From NCBI RefSeq assembly GCF_035760125.1, contig NZ_DASTTN010000028.1, forward strand, positions 1 through 52,652: DNA of 52,652 bases, written 5' to 3'. The translations under genes and the position numbers were made by a program. The DNA is from Flavobacterium sp. (GTDB taxonomy: Bacteria; Bacteroidota; Bacteroidia; Flavobacteriales; Flavobacteriaceae). The notes below the pieces were generated by a model that was given only the letters and a program-made list of their open reading frames with translations, did no database searches and was not told the origin of the DNA. Of this stretch, positions 5,688 to 49,130 are shown piece by piece. Positions within the stretch are counted from its first letter, which is position 1, and the number at the start of each line of letters is the position of its first letter.

Positions 5688-6461
5688 ATGAAAAAAATTA
5701 TAATTTTCTTGTTAGTGGTCTTCACTTTAGGTTTCGATAATGAGAAAGATGAAGCCTTTTCAGGAGGTGAATATCTAAAATTTAGAGTGCATTATGGGCT
5801 ATTAAATGCCGGTTATGCCACACTTGAAGTCAAAGACGAAACATTAAGTGGTCAGCCTGTTTTTCACGTTATAGGAAAAGGCTTTTCAACCGGCATGACT
5901 AAATTTTTTTTTGATGTTCAAGATGTTTATGAAAGCTACATTGATAAGGATACTAGAAATCCATACAGATTTGTTAGAAAAATAGACGAAGGCGGATATA
6001 CTAAGAATCAAGAAGGATTCTTTAATCAAAAAACTAATAAAGTCTTGGTGAAAGACTACAAGCACAAAACCGAAAAAACATTTGACTTTTCCAAAAACAC
6101 ACAAGACATATTGTCGTCATTTTATTATCTACGAAATTATCCGAATATCAATAAAATAAAAACAGGTGATTCGATAATTATCGATATGTTTTTCGACAAT
6201 GAGACTACAAAATTTAAGTTAAAATTTATAGGTAGAGAAGATATTAAAACTAAATTTGGCGTTGTTTCTGCGATGATTTTTAGACCTTTAGTACAGTCTG
6301 GGCGGATATTTAAGGAAGAGGAAAGTTTAACGGTTTGGATTTCAGACGACTATAACAAGATTCCACTTAGAATAAAAGCGAGTCTCTTGGTAGGGTCGAT
6401 TAAAGCTGATTTGGAAGAGTACAAAGGATTGAATAATCCGTTTAAATTAAAAGCAAAATGA
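5688..6461 (+). CDS. DUF3108-family exported protein
   Basis: Signal peptide; GEYLKFRVHYG and WISDDYNKIPLRIKA pattern recalled for this family. Confidence 0.75.
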   Translation: MKKIIIFLLVVFTLGFDNEKDEAFSGGEYLKFRVHYGLLNAGYATLEVKDETLSGQPVFHVIGKGFSTGMTKFFFDVQDVYESYIDKDTRNPYRFVRKIDEGGYTKNQEGFFNQKTNKVLVKDYKHKTEKTFDFSKNTQDILSSFYYLRNYPNINKIKTGDSIIIDMFFDNETTKFKLKFIGREDIKTKFGVVSAMIFRPLVQSGRIFKEEESLTVWISDDYNKIPLRIKASLLVGSIKADLEEYKGLNNPFKLKAK

Positions 6462-45683: not shown

Positions 45684-47582
45684 ATGAGCGACGCTTTAAA
45701 ACACGAATGTGGAATAGCTTTAGTTAGACTTTTAAAACCCCTTGAATTCTATAAAGAAAAGTACGGAACTGCTTTCTATGGTATCCAAAAAATGTATTTG
45801 ATGATGGAGAAGCAGCACAATCGAGGTCAAGACGGTGCTGGTTTTGCAAGTATTAAAATGGATGTAGAGCCTGGAGAGAGATACATCAGTCGCGTGCGTT
45901 CCAATCATGCACAGCCGATTCAAGATGTTTTTAAACAAATAAATGATAGAATAAACGAAGAAATGACAGCCCATCCAGAATACGCGGATGATATGTCAGA
46001 ATTAAAAGCTAACATTCCTTATATAGGAGAATTGTTTTTAGGACACGTACGTTATGGAACTTTTGGTAAAAACAGTATCGAAAGTGTTCACCCATTTTTG
46101 CGTCAAAGCAATTGGATGCACAGAAACTTGATTTTGGCAGGGAATTTTAACATGACGAATGTTAAAGAACTTTTTGAGAATCTAGTTGAATTGGGTCAAC
46201 ACCCAAAAGAAATGGCCGATACAGTTACTGTAATGGAAAAAATTGGTCATTTTTTAGATAAAGAAGTGATGCAATTATACCAAGATTGTAAAGCTGAGGG
46301 TTATTCTAAAAGAGAAGCTTCACCAGTTATTGCAGATCGTTTAGATATTGCAAAAATATTAGCAAGATCAGCAAAAAATTTAGATGGAGGTTATGCAATG
46401 GCTGGATTATTAGGTCATGGAGATGCATTTGTTTTCAGAGATCCAGCAGGAATTCGCCCAGCTTATTTCTATCAGGATGACGAAGTAGTCGTTGTTGCTT
46501 CTGAACGTCCAGTTATTCAGACTGTATTTAATGTACCTTTTGAAAGCGTTCAGGAAATCGAACCAGGAAACGCTTTAATTATCAAGAAAAGCGGAAAAGT
46601 TTCTATGAATCAGATTTTGGAACCAACCGTTAAAAAAGCGTGTTCATTTGAACGTATCTATTTCTCAAGAGGAAGTGATGCCGAAATCTATCAGGAAAGA
46701 AAGAATTTAGGAAAGTTTATTTTGCCGGCAGTATTAGAATCTATCGATAGTGATACTGACAATACGGTTTTCTCTTATATTCCAAATACAGCTGAAACTT
46801 CTTTCTACGGGTTGGTGGAAGCGGCTCAAGATTTTTTGAATCAAAGAAAGAAAAATTTTATTCTTGAGAACAAAGACACATTAACAGTTGATTCTTTAGA
46901 AAAATTACTTTCTGTAAAAATCAGAACCGAAAAAGTAGCCATAAAAGACGCTAAACTTAGAACCTTTATTACCGAAGACAGTAGTAGAGATGATTTGGTG
47001 GCTCACGTTTATGATGTGACTTATGGAGTAATTAAACCAACAGATAATCTTGTAATAATTGATGATAGTATTGTAAGGGGGACAACTCTTAAAATGAGTA
47101 TTATCAAAATGATGGATCGTTTAAATCCAAAAAGAATTGTAATTGTTTCCTCAGCACCACAAATAAGATTTCCGGATTGCTATGGAATTGATATGGCAAA
47201 ACTGGAAGGGCTTGTTGCCTTTAGAGCAGCATTAGAGTTGCTAAAAGAAAGAAACTTATACCATATCGTTGATGAAGTTTATGCTAAGTGTAAAGCTCAG
47301 GAAGACTACCACGATAATGACGTTGTGAATTATGTAACCGCTATATACGAGCCGTTTGCACCTCAAGAGATTTCAGATAAAATAGCCGAAATGCTAAGTT
47401 CACCTGAAATTAAGGCAGAAGTAAAAATTATCTTTCAAACAGTTGAAGATTTACATGTTGCTTGTCCAAAAAATTTAGGAGATTGGTATTTTACCGGTGA
47501 TTATCCTACTCCAGGAGGTAATCGTGTGGTTAACAGGGCTTTCATGAATTTTTATGAAGGAAAAGATGCAAGGGCATATTAA
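45684..47582 (+). CDS. purF: Amidophosphoribosyltransferase
   Basis: HECG Ntn cysteine, NRGQDGAG, GHVRYGT, CSFERIYFSR, DDSIVRGTT. Confidence 0.95.
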   Translation: MSDALKHECGIALVRLLKPLEFYKEKYGTAFYGIQKMYLMMEKQHNRGQDGAGFASIKMDVEPGERYISRVRSNHAQPIQDVFKQINDRINEEMTAHPEYADDMSELKANIPYIGELFLGHVRYGTFGKNSIESVHPFLRQSNWMHRNLILAGNFNMTNVKELFENLVELGQHPKEMADTVTVMEKIGHFLDKEVMQLYQDCKAEGYSKREASPVIADRLDIAKILARSAKNLDGGYAMAGLLGHGDAFVFRDPAGIRPAYFYQDDEVVVVASERPVIQTVFNVPFESVQEIEPGNALIIKKSGKVSMNQILEPTVKKACSFERIYFSRGSDAEIYQERKNLGKFILPAVLESIDSDTDNTVFSYIPNTAETSFYGLVEAAQDFLNQRKKNFILENKDTLTVDSLEKLLSVKIRTEKVAIKDAKLRTFITEDSSRDDLVAHVYDVTYGVIKPTDNLVIIDDSIVRGTTLKMSIIKMMDRLNPKRIVIVSSAPQIRFPDCYGIDMAKLEGLVAFRAALELLKERNLYHIVDEVYAKCKAQEDYHDNDVVNYVTAIYEPFAPQEISDKIAEMLSSPEIKAEVKIIFQTVEDLHVACPKNLGDWYFTGDYPTPGGNRVVNRAFMNFYEGKDARAY

Positions 47583-47660
47583 TTCACTTTACCGTTAAAC
47601 GGGTTTGTGTGTGTTTTATCGACTTTATTTTCAAAGTTGTAAATCTCAAAGTATATTCGC

Positions 47661-47735
47661 CTACCATAATTTTAGTAGGTTAAGTTTATGGTAGATTTGG
47701 GGCAAAAAGGGTGAAAGTAACATTTCACCTTTTTT
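47661..47735 (+). ncRNA. Candidate sibling sRNA, copy 1
   Basis: Preceded by near-consensus TATATTCG (47652-47659); 5' hairpin CTACCATAA/TTATGGTAG; terminator GGTGAAA/TTTCACC plus U6. Confidence 0.65.
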
Positions 47736-47901
47736 ATTGGAATAAAGTCAAGTTTTAGGTTCTATAATATAAGTTTGACAGCGAAATAGTTTGTTTGAAA
47801 GTTATTAAATATTTTGTGAATCAATAAATTAGCTAATAATCGAGTATTTTGGATATTTATCGAATTTATTTTAAAAAGAACAAATCTCAAAGTATATTTG
47901 A

Positions 47902-47977
47902 CTACCATAATTTTTAGTAGGTTAAGTTTATGGTAGATTTGGGGCAAAAAGGGCGAAAGTAACATTTCGCCTTTTTT
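47902..47977 (+). ncRNA. Candidate sibling sRNA, copy 2
   Basis: TATATTTG at 47893-47900; terminator stem has the compensatory change GGCGAAA/TTTCGCC. Confidence 0.7.
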
Positions 47978-48131
47978 ATTGGAATAAAATCAAGTTTTAC
48001 TTTTTTAATAATAAATTAAGAGTAAAATAACAAGTCAAATATTCTGAAAATCAGTAAATTAGTTGATAGTCGTATATTTGCGACATTCATCGAAAATATT
48101 TTCAATAAAGTGATTATCGACGTACATTTGA

Positions 48132-48206
48132 TTACCATAATTTTAGTAGGTTAAGTTTATGGTAGATTTGGGGCAAAAAGGGTGAAAGTAACATTTCACC
48201 TTTTTT
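48132..48206 (+). ncRNA. Candidate sibling sRNA, copy 3
   Basis: TACATTTG at 48123-48130; same hairpin and terminator. Confidence 0.7.
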
Positions 48207-48320
48207 ATTTTAAAAAAATAAAATTTAATTTACTGATAATTAGTAAATTAACAATTAAACGAGTATTTAGGGTATTCAACGAAAATAATATTAAAACAGT
48301 TTATTTCAATGTATATTTGA

Positions 48321-48396
48321 CTACCATAATTTTTAGTAGGTTAAGTTTATGGTAGATTTGGGGCAAAAAGGGTGAAAGTAACATTTCACCTTTTTT
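48321..48396 (+). ncRNA. Candidate sibling sRNA, copy 4
   Basis: TATATTTG at 48312-48319; same hairpin and terminator. Confidence 0.7.
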
Positions 48397-48521
48397 ATTG
48401 GAATAAAGTCCCAAAAACATAATAGAATTGAGAGAATAGAAAAAAAATATAGATCAAAAAAATAGACGAACAAACTTTTCAGTCTATTCGTCTATCATGT
48501 ATGGATTTATTATCTTTCTTC

Positions 48522-49130
48522 TTATTTCTCTAAAGCAAAACGTCTAGATACTTCTGTCCAGTTAATCACATTGAAGAAAGCTTCGATATAATCTGGTCTT
48601 CTGTTTTGATAATGTAAGTAATAAGCATGTTCCCAAACATCCATTCCTAAAATTGGAGTTCCACCGCAACCTACTTCTGGCATCAATGGATTATCTTGAT
48701 TTGGAGTTCCGCAAACGTCAAGTTTACCACCTTTTTGCACACATAACCAAGCCCATCCAGAACCAAATTGTGTAGCTCCTGCTTTAGCAAATTTTGCTTT
48801 AAATTCTTCAAAAGTCCCAAAAGAACTTTCGATAGCAGCTAACAATTCACCTGTTGGCAATCCACCACCGTTTGGAGACATAACAGTCCAAAACAAGTTG
48901 TGATTGTAAAATCCACCACCATTATTGCGAACTGCAGCATTAGTTTTATCTAGGTTAATTAAGATATTCTCAATTGTTTTTCCTTCCAAATCAGTTCCAG
49001 CAATAGCTGCATTCAAATTTGTTGTATAAGCATTGTGGTGCTTTGAATGGTGAATTTCCATTGTACGAGCATCAATATGAGGTTCTAATGCGTCATACGC
49101 ATAAGGTAATTGTGGTAATTCAAAAGCCAT
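48522..49130 (-). CDS. sod: Fe/Mn superoxide dismutase
   Basis: [27 protein letters not shown]; metal preference not determined. Confidence 0.97.

What the first reader, a model, noticed from the sequence alone, without database searches (positions are those of the whole stretch)
47594..48396. Array of four self-contained sibling small-RNA genes between purF and sod
Seen: four ~75-bp cores are almost invariant while the 114-166 bp between them have diverged. Each core follows a -7 promoter element by 1 nt (TATATTCG, TATATTTG, TACATTTG, TATATTTG), folds into a CTACCATAA/TTATGGTAG hairpin, continues through ATTTGGGGC and ends in an intrinsic terminator. The only differences are one T-run length, a first-base C>T that keeps a G-U pair, and a compensatory T-A to C-G pair in the copy 2 terminator. 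The cores contain no usable sense ORF. Inference: four separately transcribed ~72-nt RNAs under selection, like the multicopy Qrr or csRNA systems; I know of no described equivalent in Flavobacterium. This is the best candidate for a new system in the window.
Basis: partly seen in the sequence, partly recalled or inferred. Interest (0 to 1): 0.9.

Follow-up and report, generated by a model that had tools for sequence, protein, structure and literature searches.

The report
Sibling sRNAs targeting CAP lipoprotein mRNAs
Four tandem copies of a 73-base regulatory RNA (the catalogued but uncharacterised Flavobacterium transcript Rfp13) are complementary to the sequence just ahead of and including the start codon of three surface-lipoprotein genes elsewhere in the genome, so they likely block translation of those genes, with RNA and targets predicted to be switched on by the same activator.

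Summary
The array is real: four promoter-to-terminator units of 73-74 nt. It is not an unknown transcript. It is Rfp13 of Flavobacterium psychrophilum (PMC9723704, Table S8), with a mapped start and ~136-fold stationary-phase induction, but no described function and no Rfam family. The gene lies beside purF and/or sod in 97 of 99 related loci, in 1-6 copies; strong matches were found only in Flavobacteriaceae.

New here: nt 1-45 are predicted to pair (-42 to -49 kcal/mol; background -16 +/- 4) with the 5' leader and AUG of three paralogous CAP-domain lipoprotein genes. The site is conserved (20 of 30 Flavobacterium CAP leaders at or below -30; control orthologue sets 0 of 41 at or below -28). 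sRNA and CAP promoters share LytTR-type direct repeats spaced 20-21 bp, as does the promoter of an atypical LytTR regulator gene linked to the array in six genomes.

Best model: LytTR-activated sibling sRNAs repress CAP lipoprotein translation (incoherent feed-forward loop). Stabilisation is the main rival; an iron-sparing role is poorly supported. The RNA persists where CAP sites are absent, so other targets probably exist. Pairing and regulation are untested experimentally.

The parts
45684..47582 (+). purF-like amidophosphoribosyltransferase gene, upstream neighbour; no terminator seen between it and copy 1
   Evidence: next to the array in 93 of 99 related loci
47591..47622 (+). copy 1: pair of LytTR-type direct-repeat boxes at -72 and -52
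   Evidence: pair score 22.3
47652..47659 (+). copy 1: sigma-A -7 element TATATTCG
47663..47735 (+). sRNA copy 1 (Rfp13 orthologue, 73 nt): pairing region nt 1-45, terminator nt 42-73
47832..47863 (+). copy 2: direct-repeat boxes
   Evidence: 15.8
47893..47900 (+). copy 2: -7 element TATATTTG
47904..47977 (+). sRNA copy 2 (74 nt; compensatory terminator pair)
48062..48093 (+). copy 3: direct-repeat boxes
   Evidence: 14.7
48123..48130 (+). copy 3: -7 element TACATTTG
48134..48206 (+). sRNA copy 3 (73 nt, identical to copy 1)
48251..48282 (+). copy 4: direct-repeat boxes
   Evidence: 16.5
48312..48319 (+). copy 4: -7 element TATATTTG
48323..48396 (+). sRNA copy 4 (74 nt)
48522..49130 (-). Fe/Mn superoxide dismutase gene, convergent downstream neighbour (sodA also flanks Rfp13 in F. 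psychrophilum)
   Evidence: next to the array in 83 of 99 related loci

Best explanation
The array is four self-contained copies of the Flavobacteriaceae small RNA Rfp13, whose first 45 bases are complementary to the predicted 5' leader and start codon of CAP-domain lipoprotein genes elsewhere in the genome and likely block their translation, while a LytTR-type activator is predicted to switch on both the RNA genes and the target genes. Steps: (1) inferred: a LytTR regulator binds two direct repeats at -72/-52 and activates each copy's sigma-A promoter, strongly in stationary phase as measured for the orthologue; the best candidate is the C523 regulator, whose own promoter carries the same boxes; (2) shown for the orthologue: a 73-nt terminated RNA is made; (3) inferred: the unpaired AGAUUUGGGGC linker seeds on the C-rich 5' end of the CAP mRNA, the weak 5' stem opens, and pairing zips to the AUG; (4) inferred: the duplex covers the -20..+3 zone that Flavobacterium ribosomes need unstructured, so lipoprotein synthesis is capped (incoherent feed-forward loop); tandem copies raise dose and response speed. 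Further targets probably exist.
For: Orthology: same core sequence, same sodA neighbour, mapped start with 5'-end coverage 7237. Targets in this genome: of 7,288 start-codon windows the top three genes are CAP paralogues C229 (-48.9), C185 (-44.8), C158 (-41.7); mean -16.1, SD 3.8; next gene -35.3; best score of three shuffled sRNAs -30 to -31. A scan of 21,538 seeded windows genome-wide gives the same three after the array's own antisense. Net cofold gain -28 to -36 kcal/mol. Conservation: 20 of 30 Flavobacterium CAP leaders <= -30 (mean -34.1) and 29 leaders from other genera mean -24.7, against -17.3 for 123 other starts in the same loci and -14.0 for shuffled sRNA; negative controls lepB (0 of 26) and a second lipoprotein family (0 of 15) <= -28. 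A site pattern scanned over 28 genomes gave 10 hits: 9 CAP starts and 1 sRNA antisense. A -7-like element lies 11-17 nt before the C-run in 21 of 36 leaders, so the site would be most of the leader; AUG positions are paired in 30-33 of 39. Co-occurrence: both 26, sRNA only 3, CAP only 1, neither 6 in 36 genus genomes; 28/3/1/8 in 40 other genera (kin not independent). Boxes: a matrix built from sRNA promoters alone scores 39 of 59 CAP promoters above the 95th percentile of 3,456 genome upstreams; geometry fits LytTR sites and resembles the YpdB repeat (PMC4847170). The C523 LytTR gene has the highest box pair seen (27.0); 15 of 26 best-reciprocal homologues exceed the 99th percentile; it lies about 4 kb from the sRNA in six genomes. 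Structure at -20..+20 lowers initiation in F. johnsoniae (PMC6847099).
Against: No experiment on pairing, sign or activator. In 6 genus genomes the only CAP gene found lacks the site (-10 to -17) yet the sRNA persists in 1-3 copies, and 6 of 76 genomes have the sRNA with no CAP hit (5 of these 6 re-checked with PF00188, 0 hits), so CAP is not the only reason it is kept; searches for a second conserved target failed. The fourth CAP paralogue here (C465) scores only -21.5. No CAP-annotated gene is among the 52 CopraRNA rows I saw for Rfp13. Clade covariation is weak: 8 of 8 in one clade, 12 of 18 in the other. The C523 regulator was not found at E 1e-25 in G016, G021, G022, G028 or most other genera that keep the sRNA; the genome has 13 LytTR genes, and being boxed may only make C523 a regulon member. 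Deleting the related-style sRNA Rfp18 lowered, not raised, target mRNAs.
Confidence: 0.55

Rival explanations
1. Same pairing, opposite sign: the sRNA binds the extreme 5' end of the CAP mRNA and stabilises or stores it, as FasX does for ska mRNA, giving a coherent feed-forward loop.
For: The C-rich seed site starts within about 5 nt of the predicted CAP start in most leaders; RNA and target share the same boxes; FasX protects a 5' end in this way (PMC12675982); rfp18 deletion reduced target mRNAs.
Against: A second conserved complement (CUUAAC / CUACU) sits directly before the AUG and predicted duplexes cover -16..+2 in most leaders, which should hinder initiation.
Confidence: 0.17
2. The CAP leaders are decoys: the sRNA's main job is on many weaker targets or on an RNA-binding protein, and the co-induced CAP mRNA sponges it.
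For: Some leaders carry two or three tandem sites (L219, L220, Maribacter-like clade); the sRNA persists without CAP sites; linker and loop are nearly invariant (biased by the search pattern); Bacteroides FopS sRNAs bind the protein RbpB.
Against: No second target set or k-mer enrichment found; site position over the AUG suits regulation of CAP itself.
Confidence: 0.15
3. A RyhB/PrrF-like, Fur-repressed iron-sparing sRNA acting on iron proteins such as the neighbouring SOD.
For: Table S8 comment 'induced under iron depletion'; dipyridyl log2FC +2.38; tandem copies beside sod; tracks the haem receptor hfpR in stationary phase and dipyridyl.
Against: Riemerella-type Fur box matches sRNA promoters only at background level (11-12 of 19 for the four copies; 1 of 186 promoters reach 15). 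Ferritin, Dps-like, aconitase and sod leaders rank 929-5,032 of 7,288. Rfp13 falls in plasma (-1.27) where hfpR rises (+4.46) and rises in NaCl (+2.2) where hfpR does not. Direct repeats, not a palindrome, are conserved.
Confidence: 0.08
4. A repeated bidirectional terminator or small mobile repeat with no RNA function.
For: Copies end in A-run/stem/T-run hairpins between convergent genes; solitary copies occur elsewhere in some genomes.
Against: Mapped independent transcript; the linker is conserved while terminator arms vary (71 distinct arms among 196 copies, 191 still fold); every examined copy brings a promoter; none in viral contigs or plasmids.
Confidence: 0.02

Closest known systems
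Rfp13 (THC0290_N_0129) of Flavobacterium psychrophilum, PMC9723704
   Same: Orthologue: same core, length, structure, -7 promoter, sodA neighbour; the paper's homologue list includes a sequence identical to the core of copies 1 and 3.
   Different: Listed as one transcript with no tested function; tandem copies, CAP-leader targets and LytTR-type boxes are not mentioned in the parts I could read (SI Appendix not readable).
FopS family of Bacteroides thetaiotaomicron, PMC11697453
   Same: Multicopy ~65-70 nt Bacteroidota sRNAs from sigma-A promoters that pair near start codons of envelope-protein mRNAs and repress translation.
   Different: FopS are 14 paralogues with a short 5' seed hitting many susC mRNAs; here 1-6 mostly tandem copies with ~40-nt complementarity to one lipoprotein family. 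Sequence homology to FopS was not tested directly.
FasBCA/FasX of Streptococcus pyogenes, PMC12675982
   Same: Response-regulator-activated sRNA; pairs at an mRNA 5' end and at initiation regions of surface-protein mRNAs.
   Different: Single 205-nt RNA next to its kinases; different phylum; here tandem siblings and targets that carry the same boxes.
Qrr (LuxO) and csRNA (CiaR) sibling sRNAs
   Same: Several near-identical sRNAs under one response regulator acting by base pairing.
   Different: No Rfam match; different regulator family; copies tandem rather than dispersed.
RyhB / PrrF1-PrrF2 iron-sparing sRNAs (recalled)
   Same: Tandem copies; induced by an iron chelator.
   Different: No Fur box and no iron-protein targets found.

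Membership tests
Rfp13 orthologues | Core sequence and two-hairpin structure of the 73-nt RNA | tested here: met
Rfp13 orthologues | Convergent on the superoxide dismutase gene | tested here: met
Rfp13 orthologues | Transcribed as a discrete RNA in this organism | tested here: inconclusive
   only assembled contigs of relatives available
Any Rfam family | Score above gathering threshold | tested here: not met
   best 21.3 bits, E 1.2
Trans-acting base-pairing sibling sRNAs (FopS, csRNA, Qrr kind) | Several copies, each with own promoter and terminator | tested here: met
Trans-acting base-pairing sibling sRNAs (FopS, csRNA, Qrr kind) | Conserved complementarity to initiation regions of unlinked mRNAs | tested here: met
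Trans-acting base-pairing sibling sRNAs (FopS, csRNA, Qrr kind) | Regulation shown by deletion and compensatory mutation | not testable with these tools
   bench experiment
FopS/GibS family | R1 seed homology and RbpB binding | not tested
   FopS sequences not compared; the model R1 found no strong hit outside Flavobacteriaceae within the order, Bacteroidales not searched
LytTR regulon | Two direct repeats of 9-11 nt about two helical turns apart, upstream of the promoter | tested here: met
   spacing 20 (204), 21 (53), 22 (21) of 278 pairs; boxes at -73/-53
LytTR regulon | Binding by an identified LytTR protein | not testable with these tools
   candidate C523
RyhB/PrrF iron-sparing sRNAs | Fur box over the promoter | tested here: not met
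   using the Riemerella box from PMC5609570
RyhB/PrrF iron-sparing sRNAs | Pairing with mRNAs of iron-containing proteins | tested here: not met
   (five genes; sdh not located)
MITE / REP-like repeat | Many dispersed promoterless copies | tested here: not met

The most novel reading that the evidence does not exclude
A family-wide stationary-phase circuit of Flavobacteriaceae: an autoregulated LytTR regulator with Glu in place of the phospho-acceptor Asp co-activates exported proteins and a copy-number-tunable array of sRNAs, and the whole 5' leader of CAP lipoprotein mRNAs has evolved as a near full-length antisense partner (sometimes in tandem repeats) of that RNA. Target and regulator would titrate each other like an unlinked type I antitoxin pair, with array size setting the threshold.
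Probability: 0.2. Interest if true: 0.8.

Novelty: new member of a known kind. Interest (0 to 1): 0.6.

Why it matters
Flavobacteriaceae are abundant in soil, fresh water and sea, initiate translation without Shine-Dalgarno pairing, and the only functionally tested sRNA of the family that my searches found is Rfp18. This gives one of their most conserved sRNAs (about 1,100 GTDB stretches hold the exact core) a specific conserved target family, a candidate activator and a binding motif, all testable in F. johnsoniae. It also ties an uncharacterised CAP lipoprotein family to stationary phase, and offers a natural, strong antisense scaffold for gene knock-down in this group.

Tried and rejected
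Rfam: nothing above threshold. Rfp18 as the identity: different sequence. Apparent extra paralogues at C229, C185, C158: they are the antisense of CAP leaders, not sRNA genes. Small peptide: rejected. Fur/iron-sparing: not supported. Broad k-mer targeting of leaders: no consistent enrichment across the seed, three isolated AT-rich 7-mers at z 4-5. Second targets: lepB and the C286 lipoprotein not conserved; pattern hits in CAP-less or site-less genomes were chance; the C139 candidate was fetched but not tested in relatives. Public RNA runs: small shares, contigs only, no information on ends or strand. Viral contigs and plasmids: no match. CAP protein against PDB sequences: no match. sRNA copy number does not track CAP copy number by inspection (G033 1 vs 4; G034 4 vs 1). 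Terminator covariation could not be counted on the MAFFT alignment; a per-copy fold was used. Two marginal model hits outside the family were not examined. Earlier scan findings: none relevant.

Full report
Observation. The region between purF (45684-47582, +) and a convergent Fe/Mn SOD gene (48522-49130, -) holds four near-identical cores. Each has a -7 element, a 7-bp 5' stem, an unpaired AGAUUUGGGGC linker and a terminator. BLAST and a covariance model find only these four full copies in the 4.37-Mb assembly. Rfam has no match. The spacers keep 56-74% identity over the 80 nt before each start.

Distribution. The core matched 29 of 36 same-genus genomes and 0 of 24 genomes of other families. 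An exact pattern matched 31 of 40 other genera of the family. A model search gave 10 of 14 Flavobacteriaceae and two marginal hits among 106 genomes of other families. An exact 22-mer scan estimated about 1,100 GTDB stretches. Of 140 loci, 45 had one copy, 66 two, 16 three, 12 four and 1 six (some loci are short, so counts are lower bounds). Among 99 long loci, 79 had both purF and sod, 14 purF only, 4 sod only, 2 neither. Solitary copies elsewhere carry their own promoters. Terminator arms vary (71 distinct among 196 unique copies; 191 fold at <= -8 kcal/mol) while the linker is nearly invariant, a figure inflated by the search pattern. The 5' stem shows compensatory changes at 2 of 5 pairs in 36 diverse copies.

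Identity. Table S8 of PMC9723704 lists Rfp13, 73 nt, 'induced under iron depletion', with the same core. Its mapped start is the A before CCAT, i.e. 47663, 47904, 48134 and 48323 here. It is convergent on sodA. Table S9 lists homologues, one identical to the core of copies 1 and 3. Expression (log2): stationary +7.09, transition +5.68, dipyridyl +2.38, NaCl +2.2, plasma -1.27. The main text names Rfp13 once, as structured and conserved. A full-text search for Rfp13 returned no other relevant paper.

Targets. Weak BLAST hits on C229, C185 and C158 turned out to be the reverse complement of the leaders of lipoprotein genes. Two match Pfam CAP, PF00188; the third is cut by its contig end and is 81% identical to C229. 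Among 7,288 start-codon windows (my own ORF calls, up to two starts each) these three rank first at -48.9, -44.8 and -41.7 kcal/mol against a mean of -16.1 (SD 3.8); three shuffled sRNAs reached -30 to -31 at best. A genome-wide seeded scan agreed. A fourth paralogue, C465, scores -21.5. In relatives, 20 of 30 Flavobacterium CAP windows score <= -30 and 8 score above -18; 29 windows from other genera average -24.7 (two further loci gave no ATG and were dropped); 123 other starts in the same loci average -17.3, and the lowest of those are CAP genes read from an earlier ATG. Orthologue sets of two runner-up genes show no conserved pairing. A pattern designed from the site hit 9 CAP starts and 1 sRNA antisense in 28 genomes and nothing else. 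A -7-like element lies 11-17 nt before the C-run in 21 of 36 leaders, and predicted duplexes usually include the AUG, so the leader would be almost entirely the binding site. Some leaders hold tandem sites. Leaders of the clade whose sRNA has an extra A pair better with their own clade in 8 of 8 cases; the other clade 12 of 18.

Against a CAP-only story: six genus genomes keep the RNA while their one CAP leader lacks the site, and six of 76 genomes have the RNA and no CAP hit. I found no second conserved target. The 52 CopraRNA rows I saw (lists in that file run to 200) name no CAP gene and are led by remG and adhesins; whether F. psychrophilum has a CAP gene was not tested.

Activator. sRNA promoters carry a 12-bp box at about -73 and -53, consensus G-Y-W-K-T-T-H-A-T-C-G-A, spacing mostly 20. 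This fits LytTR sites, two 9-11 nt repeats about two turns apart, and resembles the YpdB repeat (PMC4847170). A matrix from sRNA promoters alone puts 39 of 59 CAP promoters above the 95th percentile of 3,456 upstream regions. In this genome 8 genes reach a pair score of 18 against 0 in a reversed control, though there is no excess at score 10 (34 vs 52); they include two CAP genes, gldK (named from recall of its sequence; Pfam FGE-sulfatase), an LRR protein and a metallophosphoesterase. Of 13 LytTR genes, C523:4165-4977 has a pair scoring 27.0 about 250 bp upstream. Fifteen of 26 homologues whose best match here is C523 exceed the 99th percentile. In six genomes it lies about 4 kb from the RNA, order purF-sRNA-sod-comF-like-glyS-LytTR in the two I read. 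Its receiver has Glu where the phospho-acceptor Asp is expected (position from general knowledge). It was not found at E 1e-25 in several RNA-bearing genomes, so it is a candidate only.

Iron rival. The Riemerella Fur box (PMC5609570) matches sRNA promoters at background level; iron-protein leaders rank low; expression departs from hfpR in plasma and salt. One box model and five genes make this a limited test.

Mechanism. Shown: sequence, conservation, orthologue transcription, complementarity, shared boxes. Inferred: binding in vivo, sign, activator identity, purpose of copy number. Repression is preferred because pairing covers the zone whose low structure favours initiation in F. johnsoniae (PMC6847099) and FopS acts this way (PMC11697453). 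Stabilisation has precedent in FasX (PMC12675982) and in the Rfp18 deletion result.

Literature seen. PMC9723704: abstract, passages, section 15 part 1 of 2, part 1 of Table S8, part 4 of Table S9 and searched rows of three other supplementary tables; its SI Appendix was too large to read and may discuss Rfp13 copies or homologues. PMC9331221, PMC11697453, PMC4847170, PMC5609570, PMC12675982: passages. PMC6847099: abstract and section 17. PMC11212332: term search, no hits. 'Not in print' rests in an open-access library. Qrr, csRNA, RyhB and PrrF are recalled.

Verdict. A real array of a catalogued but uncharacterised sRNA. The kind is known (sibling base-pairing sRNAs); the conserved target family, the boxes and the candidate regulator appear new. 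Interest 0.6.

Noticed in passing
G000:C523:4165-4977 (-) (L262:1453-2265), boxes near C523:5227: Orphan LytTR response regulator after glyS, with Glu at the expected phospho-acceptor site in most homologues and a conserved pair of boxes in its own promoter.
   Followed up: partly
G000:C325 about 5750-5860 (-) (L271): Boxed promoter with a -7 element followed by a ~140-nt ORF-less stretch containing AGTAGGTTA and ending in a terminator-like hairpin: possible second sRNA of the same regulon; its terminator-side motif was not found in Table S8.
   Followed up: partly
G000:C22:22399 (+), C225:5077 (+), C220:14307 (-), C135:2191 (+), C482:430 (+), C486 about 3880 (-): Other promoters with strong box pairs: gldK-like lipoprotein, two LRR secreted proteins, a metallophosphoesterase, an AhpC/TSA-domain protein, and a region ahead of a large secreted protein; mostly exported proteins.
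   Followed up: partly
L219, L220 (G023, G014) and L154, L165, L169: CAP leaders with two or three tandem copies of the sRNA-complementary site.
   Followed up: no
Rfp18 and Rfp11 rows of PMC9723704 Table S8: Both share a GUU(A/G)GUUAAG-like loop motif with Rfp13's GUAGGUUAAG, hinting that several Flavobacterium sRNAs are antisense mimics of initiation regions.
   Followed up: no
window 48458-48494: Separate hairpin followed by a T-run on the minus strand, probably the sod terminator.
   Followed up: no
L234 (G067:C13), L235, L236, L237, L238, L241: Solitary full sRNA units with their own promoters at unrelated loci, including two flanking an ~8.6-kb block in G067.
   Followed up: partly
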